Origin: an uncultured delta proteobacterium
GTDB taxonomy: Bacteria; Myxococcota; Myxococcia; SLRQ01
Assembly: GCA_963727485.1 (NCBI GenBank)
Contig: CAVSGM010000001.1
Location: forward strand, 928,001-992,000
Direction: 5' to 3'
Length of the DNA stretch: 64,000 nucleotides
This document shows positions 39 to 10,862 of this stretch, one piece after another; position 1 is the stretch's first letter; each line of letters opens with the position of its first letter. Made by a program: the position numbers and the translations under genes. The notes under the pieces are model-generated. The model worked only from the letters and a program-made list of their open reading frames with translations, searched no databases and was not told where the DNA came from.

Positions 39-1001
39 CTATCGTGGGATAGCGTCCCGATGATTCTTGAGCGCACGGACTTGAGGTCGGGCTGACGACG
101 CTGGGTACCGTTGGGCACGAGATACAGGGTCGCGAGGGTTGGCCGCCCCCGGAGCCGCTGTCGCGGGCGGCCCCCGAGAGGCCGAGCGCATCTCGACGTC
201 GCCGATGGTCACCGGCTCGAGCGCCGCGTAGTCCGTGCGCCGCCACTTGAGGTGCGACAGCTTGCGGAGCTCCGGCGCCTCGGCCTCCACCAGCAGCTTC
301 AGCGCCTCGAGCACCACCCGGCGCTGCTGGTCGGCGCGGCCCTTCTCACCGGTCGCATGCCCGAAGGGAAAGCGCACGAAGGCCACCCGGGGCGGGTTCG
401 CCTTCAGCGAGTAGGCCTCGGAGATCGAGAGGGTCACCGTGGGAATCCCCACGGCCTCGATGGATTGGGCGACCAGACCGGCCGTCAGGTTGCACGTGCC
501 TCAGGCAGGCACCAGGAGCACCGCGTCCACCGCGGCGCCCTGCATCAGGCCGGCGACCTCGGGGCCGGTCTGGTACTCCATGCGCCGCAGCTCCTTGTCC
601 TCCACGTGGCCCATGAGGCCCGCGGCCACGGGGGCCAGGGAGCCGACCACGCCCTCGTCGACCAGCTCGCGGACGCGGCTGACCGGGAGCACCAGGTCCA
701 GGTCCTCCCGGGCGTCGGTGGGGTCGTACCAGTCGTGGGTGATCTCGTACTCGGCGGGGAGCCGCGAGACGTCGAGCTCGCGCCAGCTCCCGTCGCCCTG
801 GGGCGAGTCCGCCTGGCGCTTGAAGGGCGGCTGGTCCGGGTGGTGCACGCCCCCGGTGGTCACCAGCCCCAGGCGGACCTCGGACAGGGGCTTCGTCAGA
901 TGGGCGAAGGGTGGGGCGTCGCGTTCTTCGTGCGACCGGGCCCACATGCGCTCGGTGACCGGCACGTTCACGAAGGCCCAACGGATGAGACGCTCGAACA
1001 T
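39..1001 (-). CDS. PrdB/GrdB-family selenoprotein (D-proline/glycine/sarcosine/betaine reductase selenoprotein B-like), Sec at 501-503
   Basis: ORFs 501..1427 and 39..452 are in the same frame, separated by one TGA. Read-through gives VDAVLLVPA-U-GTCNLTAGLVAQSIEAVGIPTV (UxxC). Also has LGLVTTGGVH, HDWYD and FPFGH family motifs. ATG at 1001. The last ~50 residues are low-complexity and uncertain. Confidence 0.88.
470..484 (-). promoter_or_regulatory. Putative bacterial SECIS hairpin
   Basis: mRNA 17-31 nt after the UGA reads CGGCC-GGUCU-GGUCG: a 5-bp stem with a GGUCU loop, resembling the apical loop of the E. coli fdhF SECIS. Confidence 0.65.
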
Positions 1002-1145: not shown

Positions 1146-1488
1146 ATGAAGGTCGTCGCGGGCGTGATGGCCGTGCTCCTGGCGGGCCTGGGGATCGTCT
1201 TCCTCGCCGGGAACCAGGGCCTCGTGGGGCGCATCGTCCTCGGGGCCGTGCTCCTGGTGGCCGCGGTGGTGCTCCTGGTGGTCATGCGCCTGCGGCCCCA
1301 GGTCACCGAGCGCAACATCGTCCAGAAGATTCGACGTCTCCGGCCGGATCGAGGCCAAGGCCCTGACCTGCCAGAAGTGCGGCGCCACCCTCGACGAGTC
1401 GTCGGTGAGCGTGAAGGCCGGCGCCATCTTCGTCGACTGTCCCTACTGCAAGCAGAGCTACCAGCTCGAGGAGGCGCCCAAGTGGTAG
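1146..1488 (+). CDS. Small two-TM membrane protein with C-terminal zinc ribbon (CQKC...CPYC); +1 indel near 1330
   Basis: MKVVAG... has two hydrophobic helices. Removing one T at AAGATTCGAC gives KIDVSGRIEAKALTCQKCGATL...VDCPYCKQSYQLEEAPKW*. Stop overlaps the next start. Confidence 0.75.
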
Positions 1489-3005
1489 CCGACGTCCTCT
1501 CCCGCGCGGCCCGGGCCGTGCGCTCCGATCTCTCCGGCTTCGCCGCGGCGCTGGGCGGCGGCAAGGGCACCGGCCCCGCTCCCGGTCTCCACACCTACGA
1601 CTTCGAGGGGAACGGCGGGCGCACCCGGCTCCACCTGCGCGCCCAGCCCGACGGCACCGGGCTCCTCTTCGTCGACGTCACCGACGTCCTCCACCTCTCG
1701 GGCGCCGCGACCATGCTCGCCTGGCTCGCCCTGGAGGACGTGCCCGAGGCGCGCGCCCTGGCCACCCTGGCGCGGCGGTACCGGGGCCGCACCCGCGGCG
1801 AGCTGGCCGCGGACTACCGGCGGATGCGCGAGGTGGTGGCGAGCCTGGCCAGCCCGGGCGAGGGCTGCCGCACCTGCCAGCTCGACCTCCCCAAGACCCC
1901 CCTCTTCGCCACCCGGGCCCAGGCGCCCCACAAGGTCGACCTGGCGCTCACCTACGCCTGCAACAACGACTGCCCCCACTGCTACAACGAGCCCTCGCGC
2001 TTCGATCTCGACTCCCTCGACGCCGCCGGCTGGCGGCGCGTCCTCGACCAGCTTGCGAGCGTCGGCGTCCCCCAGGTCGATCTTCACCGGCGGCGAGGCG
2101 ACCCTGCACCCGGCGCTCCCCGAGCTCATCGCCCACGCCAGCGACCTGGGGATGATTGTCGGCCTCAACACCAACGGCCGGCGGATCTCGCACCTGAGTA
2201 CATGCAGGCGCTCGCCGCCGCCGGCCTCGACCACGTGCAGGTGACCCTGGAGAGCCACCGGCCCGAGGTCCACGACGCCATGGTCCACGCCCGGGCCTTC
2301 CACCAGACCGTCCGCGGCATCGAGGCGGCGCTCGCCGCCGGCGTCCACGCCATCACCAACACCACCATCACCCGCCTCAACGCCGGCGAGATCGAGGAGA
2401 CCGTGGACTTCCTCCACGAGCTCGGCCTCGACACCTTCGCCATGAACGGGATGATCTACTCCGGCGGCGGCGAGGACACCCCCGACGCCATCCCCGCCGA
2501 CCGCATGGCGCCCATCCTGGTGCAGGTGCGCGACCGCGCCGCCGAGCACGGCATGCGCTTCCTCTGGTACACGGTCACCGAGTACTGCGAGATGTCCCCG
2601 GTGGAGCTGGAGGTCGGCGCCAAGCGCTGCAACGCCGGCGAGTACTCCATGTGCGTCGAGCCCACCGGCGACGTGCTCCCCTGCCAGAGCTACTACACCA
2701 GCGCCGGCAACCTCCTGCGCGACCCCTGGGAGCAGATCTGGAAGGGCGCGCTCTTCCGCTCCTTCCGCGACCGGGAGACCGACCCCGTCCTCGCCGGCCT
2801 CCCCGACAAGTGCCAGAGCTGCCCCGACCTCCCGGTGTGCGGCGGCGGCTGCCGCATCGAGCGCGAGGTCCGCGAGGGCACCGCCCCGGGCGGGTGCCAG
2901 AGCTGCGCCACCGGGGGCGTCCACTCGAGCGGCGTGCGCTCCAGCGGCTGCAGCGCCGCCACGCCCGAGACCCCCCTGGTCCAGATCGGAGGTGCCGGAT
3001 GCTGA
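1482..3005 (+). CDS. Radical SAM/SPASM enzyme with N-terminal RRE/PqqD-like domain (compensating indels ~2078 and ~2190)
   Basis: CNNDCPHC (CxxxCxxC). IFTGGEATL and LNTNG appear in the shifted frame between the indels. SPASM cysteines RCNAG..MCVEPTGDVLPCQS..CQSCPDLPVCGGGC. The ~90-aa N-terminal beta/helix region resembles a peptide-binding RRE. Confidence 0.9.
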   Translation: MVADVLSRAARAVRSDLSGFAAALGGGKGTGPAPGLHTYDFEGNGGRTRLHLRAQPDGTGLLFVDVTDVLHLSGAATMLAWLALEDVPEARALATLARRYRGRTRGELAADYRRMREVVASLASPGEGCRTCQLDLPKTPLFATRAQAPHKVDLALTYACNNDCPHCYNEPSRFDLDSLDAAGWRRVLDQLASVGVPQVDLHRRRGDPAPGAPRAHRPRQRPGDDCRPQHQRPADLAPEYMQALAAAGLDHVQVTLESHRPEVHDAMVHARAFHQTVRGIEAALAAGVHAITNTTITRLNAGEIEETVDFLHELGLDTFAMNGMIYSGGGEDTPDAIPADRMAPILVQVRDRAAEHGMRFLWYTVTEYCEMSPVELEVGAKRCNAGEYSMCVEPTGDVLPCQSYYTSAGNLLRDPWEQIWKGALFRSFRDRETDPVLAGLPDKCQSCPDLPVCGGGCRIEREVREGTAPGGCQSCATGGVHSSGVRSSGCSAATPETPLVQIGGAGC

Positions 3006-4285
3006 AGAAGACCTTCAAGCGGTCCCTCATGGTCGAGCGGGCCGGCGGCGAGGCCCCCGAGCCGGGGCTCCATTCGTTCACCGGCGAGGCCGACGGCCGG
3101 GCGGTGCGCTACCACCTGCGGGTGGAGCCCGACGGCGCCGGGCTGCTCCTCGCCGACGCCGCCCGGGCCCTGCGCCTCTCGCCGGTGGGCGTCGCCGCCG
3201 CCGCGGGGATCCTCGGGGGCGAGACCCACGCCGCCGTCGCCGGTCACCTCCGCCGCCTGTTCAAGGGGGTCACCAAGGCGCGCCTCGTGGCGGACGTCGC
3301 CGCCGTCGAGGCCGCCATCGAGGGCCTCTCGCGCCCGGGGCACGACGGCCCGGTGGACAGCCTCGACGACCCCACCGCCACCGCGCGCACCCGGGCCCTC
3401 TCGGCGCCCCTGTGCGCCGACGTCCGCCTCGGCGAGGTCGCCACCGGCGAGACCGTGCTCCGGCGCCTCTGGGACGCCGGCGTCCCCCAGGTCGTCGTGG
3501 TGGTGCCCGAGTCACCGGACCCCGCCGCCCTCACGCGCCTGGTGGAGCTCGCCGGCGACCTGGGGATGATCACCGGCGTCCGCGGCCGGGCCACCGAGCT
3601 CCTGGGCGACGGGCTCCTGGAGTCCCTGGTCCAGGCGGGCCTCGACCACGTGGACCTCGCCTTCGCCGGCGACGCCGCGGTCCACGACCGCCTCTTCGGC
3701 GCAGGCGACCACAAGGCTGCCGCCACCGTCTTCGAGGCGGCGCGGGCGAGCGAGGTCTTCAGCGTGGCCGTGGTCCCCCTGGTCGAGGACACCGCTCACG
3801 ACCTCGACGCCGTCCTCGAGGCGGCCCAGGCCCTCGGCGCCGGGGCCGCCGTGGCCCACGCCGTGGTCCAACCGGGGGGCGCCACCCGGGCCCTGGCCCC
3901 GGAGGCCCTGCGCCAGGCGGCGGCGAGCTGCGAGGACTTCGCCGACACCCGCGGCCTCAAGGTCGTCTTCGCCACCCCCACCGCCATCGCCAGCGACGTC
4001 GACCTCGAGGCCGCCGTCCGTGCTGGCCCCCGGGCCTCGGGCGAGGGAACCCTCGCCGTCGACGCCGCCGGCCGGGTGCTCCCACCCCGGGGCGACGCCG
4101 CGCCGGTGGGCGACCTCGCCACCACCGAGGTCGCCGCCGTCTGGGCGGCCCCGTGCTTCGCCCCCTGGCGCGAGCCCACCGCGCCCCCCGAGCGCTGCGA
4201 CGCCTGCCCGGGGCTCACCACCTGCGACGCCGGCTGCCCCAGCGCCGAGACCTCGTGGGCCCGCCACCCGGGAGGTGCCTCGTGA
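2999..4285 (+). CDS. Degenerate radical SAM/SPASM paralog lacking CxxxCxxC
   Basis: Colinear with the upstream enzyme (PGLH..YHLRVEPDGAGLL, GVPQV, LGMITG, GLDHV) but the cluster motif segment is absent in frame. Only C-terminal CDACPGLTTCDAGC is retained. Confidence 0.85.
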   Translation: MLKKTFKRSLMVERAGGEAPEPGLHSFTGEADGRAVRYHLRVEPDGAGLLLADAARALRLSPVGVAAAAGILGGETHAAVAGHLRRLFKGVTKARLVADVAAVEAAIEGLSRPGHDGPVDSLDDPTATARTRALSAPLCADVRLGEVATGETVLRRLWDAGVPQVVVVVPESPDPAALTRLVELAGDLGMITGVRGRATELLGDGLLESLVQAGLDHVDLAFAGDAAVHDRLFGAGDHKAAATVFEAARASEVFSVAVVPLVEDTAHDLDAVLEAAQALGAGAAVAHAVVQPGGATRALAPEALRQAAASCEDFADTRGLKVVFATPTAIASDVDLEAAVRAGPRASGEGTLAVDAAGRVLPPRGDAAPVGDLATTEVAAVWAAPCFAPWREPTAPPERCDACPGLTTCDAGCPSAETSWARHPGGAS

Positions 4286-6123
4286 AGGCCGCCACGTTCC
4301 GCGCGCTGCTCCTCGGCGCCGTCGCTGCCATGCTCTTCGCCTGGGCGCCCCCCGCCCGCGCCCAGGGCTACATCTTCCGGGTCCCGACCTTCGAGCTCCA
4401 GGCGACCGTCAACCCGGACGCCTCGGTGTCCCTCGACTACACCATCGTCTTCCACAACCTGCCCGGCGCCCACGCCATCGACATGGTCGACGTGGGCCTG
4501 CCCACCAAGGACTACGACACCACCAACATGGTGGCCTCGGTGGACGGCCAGCACGTCTACGGCTCCATCGGGCCCTCGCCGCGGGTCAAGGACGGGGTGG
4601 TGGTCCACCTGGGGCGGCACGCCATCCCCGCCGGCGCCACCGGCACCTTCCGCTTCCACACGGTGGTCCCGGACCTGGTGTTCAACGACACCACCGACCG
4701 CAAGCTCGCGTCCTTCCGGATCACGCCGACCTGGTTCGCCTCCAGCGTCGTCGCCGGCACCAGCGACCTCAAGATCGCCGTCCTCGTCCCCAAGGGCGTG
4801 AAGCCGGACCAGCTGCTGCACCAGGGGACGCCGTTCACCGAGAAGGCCGTCTTCCACGATCGCGCCGCCGCCATCTGGGAGTACCGGAACGCCCGGGTCA
4901 CCGGCCCGCACCTGGTGGGCCTCTCGTTCCCCATCTCCTCGATGAAGCGGGTGGTGCACATCTCCAAGCTCGAGCTGCTGGCGAGGTGGTGGGTGGCGAG
5001 CCCGGGGGTGCGGCTCATCGCCGCCCTGCTGATGCTCGGGCTCTTCGCCTTCGAGTTCTTCCGCTTCTCCGGGCGGACCGGGTGCACCGTGTGGGGCGCC
5101 CTCACCGCCGGGGCCGTGGTCCTGTTCATCTTCGCGCCGCGGATGCAGCTGTGGCTCGTCGTCCCCTGGGTCGTGGCCCTGGTGCTCATGGAGTGGGCGC
5201 TGCGCCGCAAGCGCCGGGACTACCTCCCGCCCATCGTCAACGTCGAGGGCGGGGGCATCAAGCGCGGGCTCACGGCGCCCGAGGCCGCGGCGCTCCTCGA
5301 GGTGCCGCTGGGCAAGCTGGTGACCCTGGTGGTCTTCGGCCTCCTGAAGAAGGGCGTGCTGGTCTCCAAGCAGACCGAGCCCCTGGTGCTCGAGGTCGCC
5401 GAGGCGTTCCGGGGCCAGAGCCCCACGGCGAGGCGCAAGGCCGCGTCCCAGGCCGGCGTGGTCCTCCAGAAGTACGAGAACGCCTTCATCGACGAGGTGG
5501 AGAAGCACGCGGGGAAGCCGGTCACCGAGATGGACTTCTCGGACGCGGTGAAGGGGCTCCTCGATGCCGCCACCTCGCGGGTCAGCGGCTTCGACGTCAG
5601 CGACACCAAGGCCTACTACAAGAAGATCGTGGAGCGGGCGTGGAAGATGGCCGAGGACCTCGGGCCCATCGACCAGCGCACGAAGGCCGTGGACAAGAAC
5701 CTCGAGTGGCTGCTCATCGACCACGGCTACCAGCGCCGCTTCGACCACTGGGGCACCAGCGGGTTCCTCTATGCGCCCCTGTGGATCCGCTCCCCGGGCA
5801 GCGCCATCGGCCCGGTGGGCACCGCGCCCTCCGGGGGCTCGGGGTCGTCCGCGCCGAGCTTCGGCGACGTCTCCGGCTCCTTTGCCGGCTGGACCCAGAA
5901 CGTCACCGCGGGCATCGCCGGGGCCATCCTCCCCGGCGCCGTGACCGCGCCGAGCGCCAGCGGCGGGGTCATCAACCTCTCGGGCTTCGACCACGCCACC
6001 GCCGACGTCTTCCAGGCCATGGCCGCCTCGGGCTCGAGCTCCGGGGGCGGCTCCGGGGGCGGGTGCGCCTGCGCCTGCGCCGGGTGCGCCTGTGCCTGCG
6101 CCTGTGCCGGGGGCGGGGTGTGA
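4282..6123 (+). CDS. DUF2207-like membrane protein with C-terminal Gly-rich linker and (Cys-Ala)n tail
   Basis: Signal peptide (PARA-Q), beta-rich domain (VNPDASVSLDYTIVF), three TM helices followed by RRKRR, then LTAPEAAALL. Ends SGGGSGGGCACACAGCACACACAGGGV. Confidence 0.8.
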   Translation: MKAATFRALLLGAVAAMLFAWAPPARAQGYIFRVPTFELQATVNPDASVSLDYTIVFHNLPGAHAIDMVDVGLPTKDYDTTNMVASVDGQHVYGSIGPSPRVKDGVVVHLGRHAIPAGATGTFRFHTVVPDLVFNDTTDRKLASFRITPTWFASSVVAGTSDLKIAVLVPKGVKPDQLLHQGTPFTEKAVFHDRAAAIWEYRNARVTGPHLVGLSFPISSMKRVVHISKLELLARWWVASPGVRLIAALLMLGLFAFEFFRFSGRTGCTVWGALTAGAVVLFIFAPRMQLWLVVPWVVALVLMEWALRRKRRDYLPPIVNVEGGGIKRGLTAPEAAALLEVPLGKLVTLVVFGLLKKGVLVSKQTEPLVLEVAEAFRGQSPTARRKAASQAGVVLQKYENAFIDEVEKHAGKPVTEMDFSDAVKGLLDAATSRVSGFDVSDTKAYYKKIVERAWKMAEDLGPIDQRTKAVDKNLEWLLIDHGYQRRFDHWGTSGFLYAPLWIRSPGSAIGPVGTAPSGGSGSSAPSFGDVSGSFAGWTQNVTAGIAGAILPGAVTAPSASGGVINLSGFDHATADVFQAMAASGSSSGGGSGGGCACACAGCACACACAGGGV

Positions 6124-6830
6124 CCGCGGCGGACCTCCCGTCGCCAGAGGCCCTCGAGGCCCAGGCGGCGCGGCTGGCGGGGATGCGCAGCCGGCTCCTC
6201 CGCCAGGCCGGCGTCGCCCACCTCGGGCCGGTCCTCGATCTCGGCGCCGGCTACGGCGCGGTCACCGGCGAGCTGCGCCGGCGCGCCAAGGGGCCGGTGG
6301 TGGCCCTCGACCGGCGCCGCGAGGCCCTGGCGCACGCCGGTCCCCCGGCGGTGGCGGCGGACGCCCACGCGCTGCCGTTCAGCCGGGGCGCCTTCGCCGC
6401 GGTGTTCTGCCAACTGGTCTTCCTCTGGCTCGCCGACCTGCCCCGGGCCCTCGCCGAGATCGACCGGGTGCTGGCACCCGGCGGGACCCTCCTGGCCATC
6501 GAGCCCGACTACGGGGGCCTCGTGGAGCACCCGGCGGACCTCGCCCTCGGCGAGGTGTGGCGCGCCGCCATCGCCCGGGCCGGCGGCGATCCCCTCGCCG
6601 GACGGCACCTGGTCGCCCGCCTCGGCGAGGCCGGCTACCACGCCGAGACCCGGCTCCTCCCGAGCCTCGCCGCCCCCGACGGGACGCGCTTCGACGTCCT
6701 GGCGGGCCTGCCCCTCGAGCCCGCCGAGCGCGCCCGGGTCGACGCCGCCCGCCGCGCCGAGCAGGCCCTGCCGCCTGGCGCCGCCGTCATCCACCTCCCG
6801 TTCTTCTTCGTCCTCGCCCGCCGGCGCTGA
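6120..6830 (+). CDS. Class I SAM-dependent methyltransferase
   Basis: VLDLGAGYG motif I, ADAHALPF, RVLAPGG, EPDY. GTG start overlaps the upstream TGA. Confidence 0.85.
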   Translation: MTAADLPSPEALEAQAARLAGMRSRLLRQAGVAHLGPVLDLGAGYGAVTGELRRRAKGPVVALDRRREALAHAGPPAVAADAHALPFSRGAFAAVFCQLVFLWLADLPRALAEIDRVLAPGGTLLAIEPDYGGLVEHPADLALGEVWRAAIARAGGDPLAGRHLVARLGEAGYHAETRLLPSLAAPDGTRFDVLAGLPLEPAERARVDAARRAEQALPPGAAVIHLPFFFVLARRR

Positions 6831-6864: not shown

Positions 6865-8227
6865 ATGGGATCCCGGGAAGACATCCTCTCCGGCTGGGGC
6901 GGCTACCCGAAGGCGCGCACCGAGGTGGTGCGCCCGGAGGCGGTGACCCAGCTCCCCGGCGCCTTCACCGGCGTGGGCCACGTCATCCCCCGGGGCCTCG
7001 GGCGCAGCTACGGCGACGCCGCCTTCGCCGGCGACGGGCGCACGGTGCTCACCGGCCGCCTCGACCGCATCCTCGAGCTCGACGAGGACGCCGCCGAGAT
7101 CGAGGTGGAGGCGGGGTTGCGCCTCGACGCCCTCATCCGCTTCCTGGTGCCGCGGGGCCTGTTCCCCGCGGTGGTCCCGGGGACCTCCCAGGTGACCCTC
7201 GGCGGGCTGGTCGCCTGCGACGTCCACGGGAAGAACCACCACGTCGCCGGCGCCACCTCCCGCCACGTCCTCGAGCTGGGCCTGGTGCTCCCGAGCGGCG
7301 AGCGGGTCACCGTCAGCCGCACCGAGGACCCCGAGCTCTTCTGGGCGACGCTGGGGGGCATGGGCCTCACCGGCATCGTGGAGCGGGTGCGCCTGAAGCT
7401 CGAGCGCATCGAGAGCGCCTACTTCTCCGTGGACATCGACCGGACCGCCGACTTCGAGGAGGCCCTCGACCGGTTCCACGACTCCGACGACCAGTACACC
7501 CACTCGGTCGCCTGGATCGACGCCCTGGCCCGGGGCCGGCACCTGGGGCGCGGGGTGCTGCTGCGGGGCAACTGGCTCCCCGCCGCGGGCCTCACCGGCC
7601 GCCGCGCCCGGGACCCGCTCAAGGTCGTCCGCCGGCCCACCGCCGCGGTGCCCCTGACGCCCCCCTCGGGCCTCCTCAACACCGCGTCGATCACCGCGTT
7701 CAACACGGCCTTCTACCTCAAGAACCCGAAGCGCGCCCGGGGCCACGTCGAGGACTACGACAAGTACTTCTTCCCCCTCGACATCGTCCACGACTGGAAC
7801 CGGCTCTACGGCCCGAAGGGCTTCCTCCAGTACCAGCTGGTGATCCCCGAGGACGGCGGCCGCGAGGGGCTCCGGGAGATCCTGGAGACCAGCGCCGAGG
7901 CCCACGTGCCGAGCTTCCTCTCGGTGCTCAAGCGCTTCGGCCCCGAGGAGGCCGACCAGCTCCTCTCGTTCCCCATGGCCGGCTACACCTACACCCTCGA
8001 CATCCCCATGGCCGGCGAGGAGACCCTGGACCTCCTCGAGCGCTTCGACCGCATGGTCCTCGACCGCGGGGGCCGGCTCTACCTCGCCAAGGACGCGCGC
8101 ATGAGCGCCCAGCACCTTCCGCGCCATGTACCCGGGCTGGGAGCGGTTCCTGGCGGTGAAGCGCCGGGTCGACCCCGAGGGGCGCCTGGCCTCCGACCTC
8201 GCCCGCCGCCTGGAGCTCGTCCGATGA
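6865..8227 (+). CDS. FAD-linked oxidase, DprE1-like (frameshift ~8110)
   Basis: SGWG, RGLGRSYGD, VVPGT..VTLGG...DVHGKNHH, GGMGLTG, LSFPMAGYT, GGRLYLAKD. An extra C in CCC at ~8110 shifts the C-terminus. Confidence 0.85.
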
Positions 8228-8962
8228 ACGACACGGTCCTCGTCCTCGGCGCCACCTCGCCCATCGCCCGGGGCACCGCCGCCGCCCTGGCGCGCCGGGG
8301 CCACGACCTCCACCTCTTCGGCCGCGACGCCGAGGCGCTCGCGCGCACCGCCGCCGACCTGCGGACGCGGTACGGCGTCGAGGTGCGCACCAGCACCTTC
8401 GACGCCGAGGATCTGCGCGAGCCACGCGCAGCTGCTCACCGAGGCCTTCTCCGAGGACGAGGTCACCGGCGTGGTCGTCGCCGTGGGCCGCCTCGGGGAC
8501 CAGGCCCGCGCCGAGACCGACCCGGCCCACGCCGCGGAGATCCTCCAGGTGAACCTCGGCAGCGCGGTGAGCCTGCTGACCCACGCGGCCAACCACCTCG
8601 AGGCCGGCGGCAAGGGCTTCATCGTGGGCATCTCGTCGGTGGCCGGCGACCGGGGCCGCCAGTCGAACTACGTCTACGGTGCCGCCAAGGGCGGGCTCAC
8701 GGTGTTCCTCCAGGGGCTCCGGAACCGCCTGGCGCCCAAGGGCGTCCACGTGCTCACGGTGAAGCCGGGCTTCGTGGACACCCGGATGACCTTCGGCAAG
8801 CCCGGGATGTTCGCGGTCGCCGAGCCGGAGAAGGTGGGCGAGGGCATCGCCCGGGCCCTCGATCACCGGCGCAACGTGGTCTACCTCCCGGGGTTCTGGC
8901 GTGCCATCATGGGCGTCATCGACGCCATCCCCGAGACCGTGTTCAAGCGCCTCAAGCTGTGA
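8224..8962 (+). CDS. Short-chain dehydrogenase, DprE2-like (frameshift ~8415)
   Basis: VLVLGATSPIA, SSVAGDRGRQSNYVYGAAKG (YxxxK), KPGFVDT. Coupled to the DprE1-like gene. Confidence 0.85.
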
Positions 8963-9883
8963 CGCCCGAAGCCCCGTCGCCCGTGTCCGAAGCCCTCGCC
9001 ACCGCGCCGCTCCACCTCACCTGCGAGTCCTGCGGGGCGGCCCTCACCGTGGCGCCGGAGATGGCGCACCACCGTGTGCCCCTACTGCGCGGCGGCGGCG
9101 GTCATCGAGCGGCCGGCGGGGGACGGCGCCGAGGACCCGGTGTTCACCGTGCCCTTCGTGGTACCCGAGGCGCGCGCCCGGGCGCTCGCCGCCGCCTGGG
9201 TCCACCGGCGGCGCCTGTTCACCCCCTCGGCCTTCTCCAAGGCCAAGGTCGGCGACGTGCGCGGGGTCTACCTCCCGGCGTGGCTCTACGGCGCCACCGC
9301 CCACACCGAGTACGACGTGGAGATCGGCGAGGACTACGAGAAGCGCGGCGCCGACGGGAAGGAGCACGTGACGACCGAGTGGTGGTAGTTCTCGGGGAGC
9401 CACGCCACCTACGTCCACGACGTGCTGGTCACCGCCTCCAAGGGCGTCCCCGACGACGAGCTGGCGAAGGTCGAGCCCTTCGACCTCGGGGCCCTGCGCC
9501 GCTACCGGCCCGAGCTCATCGCCGGGTGGATCGCCGAGGATCCCTCGGTGGGCAGGGGCGCCTCCCTGGGCCGCGCCCAGGAGGAGGCCAAGGCCCAGGT
9601 GGTGGGCCAGCTCGGCAGCTACCTCCCCGGCGACAGCCAGCGCGACCTCCGCATCGGCGTCCGCTTCGACGACGAGGACCTGTCCCTGGTGCTGGTGCCG
9701 GTGTGGGTCCTGGCGGTGCGCTGGCGCGAGGACAAGCCAACCGTCCGCCTCCTCGTCAACGGCCAGAGCGGCGAGGCCGCCGGCAAGGTCCCCTTGAGCC
9801 CGGTGAAGATCCTGGTGGCCAGCGTCCTGGGCCTCGGGGTCCTGGCCGCCGCCGCCGCGTACCTCTGGCCGCTGTTCCAATGA
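8959..9883 (+). CDS. YdjG-like zinc-ribbon membrane protein (frameshift ~9065, internal TAG 9386-9388)
   Basis: CESCGA..CPYC, PF..P, GVYLPAWLY, EPFDL, LVPVWV, VNGQSG...GKVP, C-terminal TM helix. Confidence 0.7.
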
Positions 9884-10862
9884 CCGTCCCCGTCGCCAGA
9901 GGCGCCGCCTGCGCCCGCTGCCAGTGCGAGCTGGCCCCCGAGGACCTGCGCTGCGCGGTGTGCGGCCTGCCGTCCCCGGAGCGCCAGGGCGAGGTCCCCG
10001 AGCGGGCCCTGGCCCAGATCCTCCGGTGCGAGGCCTGCGGGGCGGCCATCAGCTACGACGCCGCCCTCGGCGCGCCGAAGTGCGCCTTCTGCGGCGCGGT
10101 GATGCACCTGGAGGCGCCGGTGGATCCGGTGGAGCACGCCGACGCCTGGCTGCCCTTCACCATCCAGGCCGAGCACGCGAAGCGCGCCCTCGACGCGTTC
10201 CTCTCGAAGCGCCGGTTCCTCCGCCCCAGCGGGCTCGCCGCCGAGGCGAAGGTCACCGGCCTCAAGCCCCTGTGGTGGGTCGCCTGGATCTTCGACGCCG
10301 ACGGCGAGGTCACCTGGACCGCCGACTCGGACGAGGGGAGCAAGAAGTCCGCCTGGGCGCCCCACTCCGGGAGCGGCACCCTCCACCTGGAGCGGGAGCT
10401 GATCTCGGCGTCCCGGGGGCTCACCGAGGACGAGACCGCGGCGCTGGCCTCGAGCTTCCGCCTCGAGGAGGCCCGGCAGGGCACGCCGTCCGGGGTCGAG
10501 GGCGCGGTGGTCGAGCGCTTCGACGTCCAGCGCTCGGCGGCGCGCCAGCGCATCACCCTGGCCATCGAGGCCGAGGCCCAGGCGCAGGCGGAGGCGCGTT
10601 GGATCCCCGGGAGCCGGAAGCGCAACGTCCACACCGCGGTGCGCATCACCGGCCTGCGAGACCGAGCGCTACGCCCTGCCGAGCTGGGTGCTCGCCTGGC
10701 GCTACCGGGGCAAGGTCCACCGGGCGGTCATCAGCGGCCAGGACGCCACCCGGGTGGTGGGCAAGGTGCCCTTCTCGCCGTGGAAGGTGGTCGGGCTTCG
10801 TCACCGGGCTCACGGTGGCCGTCGGCGCGCTCGTCGCCGCGGCGGTCTACTTCCTCGGGTAG
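9880..10862 (+). CDS. Second YdjG-like double-zinc-ribbon membrane protein (frameshifts ~10660 and ~10790)
   Basis: CARC..CAVC and CEAC..CAFC, WLPF, ISGQ...GKVP, C-terminal TM helix. Paralogous to the upstream gene. Confidence 0.7.

What the first reader, a model, noticed from the sequence alone, without database searches (positions are those of the whole stretch)
1146..6830. Candidate undescribed system: radical SAM pair + methyltransferase acting on the (Cys-Ala)n tail of a membrane protein
Seen: five genes with overlapping stop/start codons (1488/1482, 3005/2999, 4285/4282, 6123/6120). They encode a Zn-ribbon membrane protein, an RRE-rSAM-SPASM enzyme, a degenerate paralog, a DUF2207-like membrane protein ending in a 7-Cys alternating tail, and a methyltransferase. 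No short precursor-peptide ORF is evident. Known: RRE+SPASM radical SAM enzymes usually modify peptides, often forming thioether cross-links from Cys (sactipeptides, ranthipeptides). Inference: the substrate is the C-terminal tail of a ~610-aa membrane protein, i.e. RiPP-like chemistry on a full-length protein. This could build a cross-linked or metal-binding module, or release a peptide. I know of no characterised system with this layout.
Basis: partly seen in the sequence, partly recalled or inferred. Interest (0 to 1): 0.9.

Follow-up and report, generated by a model that had tools for sequence, protein, structure and literature searches.

The report
Radical-SAM cassette targeting membrane-protein cysteine tail
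A conserved gene cassette pairs a membrane protein ending in an almost invariant cysteine-alanine repeat with a peptide-maturase-type radical SAM enzyme, which likely cross-links that tail inside the cell; this would be an untested case of peptide-antibiotic-style chemistry on an integral membrane protein.

Summary
Three frameshifts (about 1330, 2078, 2192) are very likely assembly errors: near-identical public contigs lack them.

The 613-aa protein ends CACACAGCACACACAGGGV, and 119 of its 120 best homologues keep such a tail. It has a predicted signal peptide and three membrane helices, so the tail is likely cytoplasmic.

Enzyme and tail protein mark the same genomes: 3 of 301 (own phylum), 29 of 201 Anaerolineae, 13 of 201 Lachnospiraceae. 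A sister enzyme clade pairs with homologues ending in (Cys-His-Ser-Ala)n. In two genomes the dead paralog is fused to the tail protein. No conserved separate precursor was found.

The closest solved enzyme is the sactisynthase SkfB, with similar active-site residues. Best reading: the enzyme likely installs Cys thioethers in the tail (0.55; any tail chemistry about 0.75). Nothing is shown biochemically.

Protein thioethers by such enzymes are known (QhpD, CrpC). I found no paper on this cassette. This scan noted it before in other genomes.

The parts
1146..1488 (+). Gene 1: about 113-aa protein with a hydrophobic N-terminal half (predicted membrane-bound) and a C-terminal CxxC...CxxC zinc ribbon ending EEAPKW; +1 assembly frameshift near 1330
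   Evidence: weak Zn-ribbon hits; intact 113-aa homologues; beside the tail gene in 34 of 45 loci with at least 6.5 kb upstream; no named family
1482..3005 (+). rSAM1: RRE + radical SAM (CNNDCPHC, TGGE) + SPASM enzyme; compensating assembly frameshifts near 2078 and 2192
   Evidence: PqqD, Radical_SAM and SPASM in intact homologues; SkfB E 4e-30; RRE TfuB1 E 6e-4; model of homologue L046: SkfB Z 28.9, rmsd 4.1, 352 aligned
2999..4285 (+). rSAM2: pseudo-enzyme paralog (428 aa); keeps RRE-like and barrel regions and four C-terminal SPASM Cys; lacks CX3CX2C, GGE and the PC motif
   Evidence: (26% to rSAM1); not found with this query in 5 of 5 single-enzyme genomes; fused to the tail protein in L002 and L065 and to rSAM1 in L029
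4282..6123 (+). 613-aa membrane protein: predicted signal peptide (1-28), beta-sandwich ectodomain (28-222), three membrane helices (241-313), GOLPH3/GPP34-like domain (329-543), Gly/Ser linker, Cys-Ala tail
   Evidence: pLDDT 85; ribophorin I/Ost1 Z 14.9, rmsd 2.7, 179 aligned; GOLPH3 Z 8.0, rmsd 3.8, 161 aligned; 5578 homologues among 8000 scored
5221..5274 (+). Conserved segment YLPPIVNVEGGGIKRGLT just after the last membrane helix; candidate RRE docking strand (inferred, untested)
   Evidence: Mean column conservation 0.86, against 0.43-0.58 for the other non-tail regions; residues 314-323 disordered in the monomer model; YxPPxxxxE also in the CHSA-tail family
6064..6123 (+). Tail CACACAGCACACACAGGGV-stop (Cys 595, 597, 599, 602, 604, 606, 608); putative substrate core
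   Evidence: (C597-G612 invariant in 100 rows); disordered in the model
6120..6830 (+). Class I SAM-dependent methyltransferase (236 aa), accessory
   Evidence: directly downstream in 45 of 63 loci with at least 0.9 kb of flank; none in 18 internal-motif (class B) locus records; top solved hit LahSB, E 2e-10

Best explanation
The cassette likely encodes a protein-maturation system in which the RRE-radical SAM-SPASM enzyme binds the predicted cytoplasmic part of the membrane protein and likely cross-links the cysteines of its (Cys-Ala)n tail as thioethers, most likely sulfur to alpha-carbon. SHOWN: the gene layout; the conserved tail; one-to-one co-occurrence; tail type changing with enzyme clade; the catalytic and SPASM motifs; loss of catalytic motifs in the paralog; in-frame paralog-tail fusions in two genomes. 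PREDICTED: the RRE fold; the domain folds; a cytoplasmic tail (signal peptide plus an odd number of membrane helices). INFERRED: (1) The RRE docks on a conserved segment of the membrane protein, best candidate YLPPxxxVE after the last helix, so the protein itself plays the part of the leader. (2) The 5'-deoxyadenosyl radical abstracts H from an Ala or Gly and a tail Cys captures it (-2 Da each), unit by unit, since the repeat number varies while the GGG end is fixed. (3) The dead paralog is a binding or tethering partner. (4) The methyltransferase caps the product, perhaps as a C-terminal methyl ester. (5) The modified tail stays on the protein as a rigid sulfur-rich module, probably metal-binding or signalling, behind an extracytoplasmic domain. 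Step 5 is the weakest.
For: Co-occurrence. Own phylum: 3 of 301 genomes have the close enzyme (E<1e-160) and the same 3 have the tail pattern; G000 is included. Anaerolineae: 29 of 201 genomes have the enzyme at E<=1e-94, the same 29 have the tail family at E<=1e-45, and all 29 fetched loci show a CA tail. The cut-offs were set afterwards at gaps in the scores, and the seed genome G005 is included. Lachnospiraceae: 13 of 201 for each query, the same 13, on the same contig; there the motif sits on a different, about 330-aa carrier. Where rSAM1 was not beside the tail gene, 10 of 10 genomes checked had it elsewhere. Specificity: more distant enzymes form their own clade (SH-aLRT 100, quick tree) beside homologues with (CHSA)n tails, in 8 of 9 fetched own-phylum loci and 6 of 7 Anaerolineae loci, the seventh ending at a contig end. 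G128 and G005 carry both systems, each tail type with its own enzyme. Enzyme type: RRE; best sequence and fold match SkfB. The six active-site-proximal positions of PMC10288494 read Y-T-L/N-T-Q-S, against SkfB Y-T-F-S-Q-L and PqqE S-S-I-S-H-A (read), StsB Y-T-I-S-K-L and CteB F-F-T-S-H-Q. StsB makes sactionines in a CxCxC core. Topology: one or three predicted helices after the signal peptide in the CA and CHSA proteins scanned. Fusions. No other precursor.
Against: No biochemistry, and no model of the complex. Co-occurrence cannot tell a substrate from another kind of partner, and related genomes are not independent. One related enzyme (L160, G046) has no tailed gene in a 16-kb stretch. SuiB, a C-C cross-linker (function recalled), ties with SkfB in fold score (Z 28.2 vs 28.9). 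An extra conserved Cys (C356 in 118 of 121) could fill the auxiliary-cluster site that thioether formers are thought to leave open. Positions 3 and 6 of the six-residue profile differ from SkfB and StsB, and I compared them by eye, not with the paper's scoring. A variable, uninterrupted (CA)5-6 tail in class B does not fit a fixed hairpin like StsA's. The two fusions come from metagenome assemblies and were not checked against reads.
Confidence: 0.55

Rival explanations
1. The tail is not covalently changed. It binds metal or an Fe-S cluster, or donates sulfur or electrons, and the membrane protein is a scaffold that recruits the enzyme to act on something else, such as a lipid, a cofactor or the Zn-ribbon protein.
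For: CxC arrays are common soft-metal ligands (general knowledge). A Zn-ribbon gene is usually adjacent (34 of 45 loci). The fourth C-terminal SPASM Cys is present in only 83 of 121 enzymes, leaving a site that a tail thiol could fill. Cofactor enzymes (AhbD, NirJ, PqqE) are among the top sub-threshold NCBIfam hits.
Against: An RRE is a peptide- or protein-substrate module. Tail sequence switches with enzyme clade. Ala is invariant between the Cys, which metal binding alone would not obviously require. The two-gene class B module has only enzyme and tailed protein.
Confidence: 0.2
2. The tail is the substrate, but the chemistry is not a thioether: for example L-to-D epimerisation of alternate residues (mass-silent, giving an alternating D/L strand), or oxidation or desulfuration of Cys.
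For: Strict two-residue periodicity recalls alternating epimerisation (polytheonamide; recalled, from no call). The repeat number varies freely. Three conserved Cys lie outside the canonical ligand set (C115, C356, C378), and one could serve as H donor.
Against: EpeE/YydG epimerases are far weaker matches (E about 1e-4, Z about 18). The sister tail has period four, with Cys kept throughout. The active-site profile is sactisynthase-like.
Confidence: 0.17
3. The membrane protein is a giant anchored leader. After modification the tail is cut at the Gly-rich linker and released as a small peptide product.
For: The leader-linker-core layout, the disordered Gly/Ser linker, and a methyltransferase whose top solved hit is LahSB, a C-terminal carboxyl methyltransferase of peptide precursors (PMC11285071).
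Against: No conserved protease or exporter at a fixed position in 75 loci. The carrier domains are themselves well conserved. In class B the motif is internal and followed by a conserved RAGCSxKDF.
Confidence: 0.08

Closest known systems
CrpC/CrpA of Methanococcus voltae (TIGR04463; PMC13692751; read: abstract, Introduction, Results parts 1-2 of 3, Discussion; 3 supplement files searched)
   Same: An RRE-rSAM-SPASM enzyme shown to install thioethers on a Cys-rich C-terminal region of a large adjacent protein.
   Different: CrpA is a 29-kDa protein with 17-residue repeats and ranthionines; no membrane-protein substrate is described in the parts read. Here the target is a 600-aa integral membrane protein with a short (CA)n tail, the enzyme looks SkfB-like, and a pseudo-enzyme, a Zn-ribbon protein and a methyltransferase accompany it. 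The motifs were not found in the supplements held.
SkfB (PDB 6efn) and StsB/StsA hairpin sactisynthases (PMC10288494; read: passages and two Results sections)
   Same: RRE + rSAM + SPASM/twitch; best sequence and fold match; similar active-site-proximal residues; StsA has alternating CxCxC donors.
   Different: They act on short leader-core peptides. No such precursor was found here, and all family cut-offs are missed by a wide margin (SkfB 86 vs 300 bits, StsB 96 vs 625).
QhpD/QhpC (as described in PMC13692751, Introduction)
   Same: RRE-dependent rSAM thioether cross-linking of a protein subunit.
   Different: QhpC is a small enzyme subunit with Cys-Asp/Glu links; this tail has no Asp or Glu.
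TIGR04222 membrane proteins with MNIO (DUF692) enzymes (PMC12452194; read: passages)
   Same: Membrane proteins with an unstructured Gly/Ser/Cys C-terminus proposed as substrates of a RiPP-type enzyme; remote homology to the CHSA sister family (E 1e-9, below cut-off).
   Different: The enzyme there is a non-haem iron oxidase and the tail is predicted periplasmic. Here it is a radical SAM enzyme, a predicted cytoplasmic tail and an invariant sequence. Also untested experimentally.
DUF2207 membrane proteins
   Same: Beta-sandwich ectodomain, membrane helices, helical cytoplasmic domain, Gly-rich end; remote likeness.
   Different: P0001 hits neither Pfam model. The DUF2207 protein seen here (L211) ends in plain Gly and is not next to the enzyme.

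Membership tests
Radical SAM / SPASM superfamily (rSAM1) | CX3CX2C and GGE motif in a partial TIM barrel | tested here: met
   CNNDCPHC and TGGE in the window; the three Cys are invariant in 121 of 121 aligned homologues; PF04055 over cut-off
Radical SAM / SPASM superfamily (rSAM1) | SPASM auxiliary-cluster cysteines | tested here: met
   PF13186 and TIGR04085 over cut-off; C370, C388, C425, C428, C434, C438 invariant. Cluster binding itself is untested.
RRE-dependent RiPP maturases | N-terminal RRE (PqqD fold: three strands, three helices) | tested here: met
   PF05402 over cut-off in homologues L205 and L211, E 0.0012 in P0124; TfuB1 E 6e-4 at profile positions 30-104; model secondary structure and SkfB alignment from residue 35
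Sactipeptide / ranthipeptide clusters | Short leader-core precursor peptide gene | tested here: not met
   No ORF family of 25 aa or more is conserved across phyla beside the cassette in 75 loci; the only Cys-rich core is the protein tail
Sactipeptide / ranthipeptide clusters | Cys-to-carbon thioether formed by the enzyme | not testable with these tools
   Needs mass spectrometry; only inferred
Hairpin sactisynthases (SkfB, StsB group) | Six active-site-proximal residues (PMC10288494) | tested here: inconclusive
   Y-T-L/N-T-Q-S: 3 of 6 identical to SkfB, 2 of 6 to StsB, 0 of 6 to CteB and PqqE; motif-based reading by eye, the paper's scoring was not applied
Named NCBIfam rSAM equivalogs (SkfB, PqqE, StsB, AhbD, MftC and others) | Score over the curated cut-off | tested here: not met
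   Intact homologues reach at most about one third of the listed cut-offs (best 25 shown per protein)
CrpC family (TIGR04463) | Match to TIGR04463 | tested here: inconclusive
   Not among the best 25 families shown for any homologue; its score was not displayed
DUF2207 (PF09972 / PF20990) | Pfam match over cut-off | tested here: not met
   P0001 has no hit; one CHSA homologue passes PF09972; hhalign probability 88.6 to a DUF2207 protein over 84 columns
TIGR04222 / MNIO system | TIGR04222 domain over cut-off and an adjacent DUF692 enzyme | tested here: not met
   No TIGR04222 hit for P0001; sub-threshold in one sister protein; the conserved neighbours are rSAM-family genes (neighbours were clustered, not scanned for DUF692)
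Pseudo-rSAM proteins (TIGR04347 type) | rSAM/SPASM fold without CX3CX2C beside an active paralog | tested here: met
   Feature met, but P0002 scores 22 against a cut-off of 525 for TIGR04347: analogous, not a member

The most novel reading that the evidence does not exclude
This is one branch of a widespread, undescribed class of protein maturation. Receptor-like membrane proteins carry interchangeable cysteine-repeat tails ((CA)n, (CHSA)n and hybrids), each written by its own radical SAM clade. A dead paralog, sometimes fused to the substrate, tethers the enzyme at the membrane. The product is a poly-thioether cytoplasmic module with a new ring topology that binds metal or relays a signal from the outer domain.
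Probability: 0.35. Interest if true: 0.88.

Novelty: new variant of a known kind. Interest (0 to 1): 0.72.

Why it matters
If true, it extends RRE-guided radical SAM chemistry from short peptides and a few soluble proteins to integral membrane proteins. It would do so in a family with thousands of unannotated members (5578 clusters among 8000 scored). Record titles place members in Chloroflexota, Planctomycetota, Armatimonadota, Hydrogenedentota, Myxococcota and Bacillota. An Ala/Cys-only core implies a cross-link pattern unlike characterised sacti- or ranthipeptides. The two-gene version in Hungatella hathewayi WAL-18680 (L045), a named strain, makes the question directly testable. The fusions give a concrete role to test for radical SAM pseudo-enzymes.

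Tried and rejected
- Real pseudogenisation of genes 1 and 2: rejected; near-identical contigs lack the indels.
- Tail as a DNA microsatellite: rejected; 125 synonymous spellings.
- Separate precursor or conserved protease/exporter: none found. A Met-synthase activation-domain gene is inserted in only 6 Chloroflexota loci. ABC ATPases appear in 10 loci at scattered positions.
- Flanking window genes (GrdB-like, FAD oxidase, SDR) as parts: rejected; not conserved neighbours.
- Phage-borne origin: no relative of P0001 in viral contigs (one close-range query).
- Foldseek search of the enzyme model did not run; the VIA search did.
- Longer fused forms of 1074-3065 aa: none scored (weak, and the known fusions are shorter). 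The representative search returned one full fusion, P0248, which appears to be L065's protein, so the count stays at two.
- Expression: no RNA holder listed.
- Tree: only the quick tree finished. Two separate origins of the dead paralog are suggested, not established.
- Literature: searches found no paper on this cassette. Motif searches were swamped by primer strings, and the string matches only one tail variant. Subscription journals are not covered, and the supplements of PMC13692751 and PMC10288494 may hold sequence sets I could not see. PMC10705402 had none of the terms.
Full report
Observation. The five genes lie at the stated places with overlapping stops and starts. Genes 3-5 are intact. 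Gene 1 and rSAM1 carry three single-base indels. Near-identical contigs from public runs lack the extra base at 1330 in 4 of 4 runs and at 2078 in 3 of 3 covering runs, and add one at 2192/2193 in 3 of the 4 runs. The indels are therefore very likely assembly errors. The tail pattern occurs once in the genome.

The tailed protein. P0001 has no Pfam or NCBIfam hit but 5578 homologues among 8000 scored candidates. Of the best 120, 119 end in a Cys-Ala tail with 6-8 Cys; the exception runs on into methyltransferase sequence. C597-G612 is invariant in a 100-row alignment. The core is spelled in 125 different ways in DNA (the loci were found with this pattern, so only the free third positions are informative). 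The AlphaFold2 model (mean pLDDT 85) and hydropathy give a signal peptide, a beta-sandwich, three membrane helices, a helical domain and a disordered tail. The sandwich resembles ribophorin I/Ost1 (Z 14.9, rmsd 2.7, 179 aligned) and the helical domain GOLPH3 (Z 8.0, rmsd 3.8, 161 aligned; borderline). Relatives have three or one predicted helices after the signal peptide, so the tail is predicted cytoplasmic, where a radical SAM enzyme could reach it. The DUF2207 link is remote.

Neighbourhood. After dropping 5 duplicate loci, 69 of 75 encode a recognisable member of this protein family. An rSAM-family gene lies upstream in 54 of 58 loci with at least 3.5 kb. Of 45 loci with at least 6.5 kb, 29 have both paralogs, 7 only the active one, 7 only the dead one, and 34 have gene 1. 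The methyltransferase follows in 45 of 63. I checked 10 of the 11 genomes whose locus had long flanks yet lacked rSAM1 (L041 not checked); all 10 have it elsewhere (one match partial). Five single-enzyme genomes gave no dead paralog with the query used. No short ORF family is conserved across phyla.

Reverse test. In 301 genomes of the window's phylum, the close enzyme and the tail pattern mark the same 3, the window's included. In 201 genomes of G005's class (Anaerolineae by L023's title), the same 29 have enzyme (E<=1e-94) and tail family (E<=1e-45); all 29 loci show CA tails, one in a shifted frame. In 201 genomes of the Hungatella genome's family, the same 13 have both genes, on one contig. 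There the motif is internal in a roughly 330-aa protein that hhalign matched to this family only at the motif, and the enzyme lacks the last SPASM CxxC. Thresholds were set after the fact at score gaps, the seed genomes are counted, and kin are not independent.

Tail type follows enzyme clade. Enzymes at E 1e-50 to 1e-70 form a separate clade (quick tree). They sit beside distant homologues ending in (CHSA)n in 8 of 9 fetched own-phylum loci and 6 of 7 fetched Anaerolineae loci; I fetched only these and a few more, not all such enzymes. Against this, L160 has a related enzyme with no tailed gene in 16 kb. G128 and G005 carry both systems. Two Lachnospiraceae tails are hybrids, with xHSS repeats followed by (CA)n.

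The enzyme. Intact homologues have PqqD, Radical_SAM and SPASM domains and pass no named family cut-off. A 121-row profile matches SkfB best (E 4e-30), then PqqE, and the RRE TfuB1 at its N-terminus. The model of homologue L046 (pLDDT 92) aligns best to SkfB (Z 28.9, rmsd 4.1, 352 residues), tied with SuiB. The six active-site-proximal positions defined in PMC10288494 read Y-T-L/N-T-Q-S, nearer SkfB and StsB than CteB or PqqE. This favours S-Calpha thioethers but is not decisive: C356 may saturate an auxiliary cluster, and the variable repeat number suits unit-wise chemistry better than a fixed hairpin.

The dead paralog. It lacks the cluster loop, GGE and the PC motif but keeps four C-terminal Cys. 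In L002 and L065 it is fused in frame to the tail protein's signal peptide, each with a different deletion of the SPASM end, and in L029 to rSAM1. This points to physical association of the three proteins. The junctions come from metagenome assemblies and are unchecked, and L065's taxon label looks doubtful.

The methyltransferase. It is a class I enzyme with a conserved family signature. It was not found in 18 class B locus records (3 with long flanks, 15 with 1.5 kb), where the motif is not terminal. Its top solved hit is LahSB (E 2e-10), a C-terminal carboxyl methyltransferase (PMC11285071, passages). A terminal methyl ester is a weak guess, about 0.3.

Mechanism. The best reading (0.55) is RRE-guided thioether cross-linking of the tail, kept on the protein. 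Some covalent chemistry on the tail is about 0.75 likely. Rivals are an unmodified metal- or cluster-binding tail (0.2), epimerisation or other chemistry (0.17), and release of a peptide (0.08). No complex model could be obtained, so the docking strand is an inference from conservation (0.86) and disorder.

Known and new. PMC13692751 shows an RRE-rSAM-SPASM enzyme making thioethers on a large Cys-rich protein and cites QhpD. PMC12452194 proposes Cys-tailed TIGR04222 membrane proteins as MNIO substrates (passages). So this works like CrpC, SkfB or QhpD but is a member of none of their curated families. Nine searches found no paper on the cassette, within the limits stated under Tried and rejected. 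Earlier notes of this scan describe the same cassette and its sister tails in other genomes; two of them gave me the paper leads. Their claims of archaeal members and of CG and CSS tails I did not test. Verdict: a real, widespread, uncharacterised system; new variant of a known kind; interest 0.72.

Noticed in passing
window 39-1001 (-): GrdB/PrdB-like gene with an in-frame TGA at 501-503 that reads as a UxxC motif; the genome has SelB over cut-off. Likely a selenoprotein split by ORF callers; divergent from the cassette.
   Followed up: partly
window 6865-8962 (+): FAD-binding oxidase followed by a short-chain dehydrogenase, a DprE1/DprE2-like pair (name recalled); both appear frameshifted near 8100 and 8410, probably more assembly errors.
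   Followed up: no
window 8960-10860 (+): Two paralogous proteins starting with Zn-ribbon-like CxxC pairs and ending in a hydrophobic stretch; the two pieces scanned had no Pfam hit; apparently frameshifted.
   Followed up: no
L162-L168, L200, L208-L213, L130, L140: Sister system: homologous membrane proteins ending in (CHSA)n or CVHD repeats next to their own rSAM clade, often followed by a roughly 400-aa gene and a small membrane Zn-ribbon gene.
   Followed up: partly
L022, L043, L045, L217-L244: Class B two-gene module: roughly 330-aa protein with internal (CA)nGGGRAGCSxKDF next to an enzyme with a shortened SPASM domain; L219 and L224 have hybrid xHSS + (CA)n tails.
   Followed up: partly
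L002:5067-8054, L065, L029: In-frame fusions of the dead paralog to the tail protein (two different junctions) and of rSAM1 to the paralog.
   Followed up: partly
L005, L017, L032, L039, L061, L064, L069: Two tandem tail genes in these Chloroflexota loci (in L005, one with one predicted helix and one with more); six of the loci have a Met-synthase activation-domain gene between the paralogs.
   Followed up: no
L202:8748-9905, L203:9702-10844: A second kind of dead paralog without any SPASM Cys, nested among active enzymes in the quick tree; may be a separate origin.
   Followed up: partly
L160:7420-8769: Related enzyme with no tailed gene within the 16-kb stretch; sits among large repetitive proteins.
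   Followed up: no
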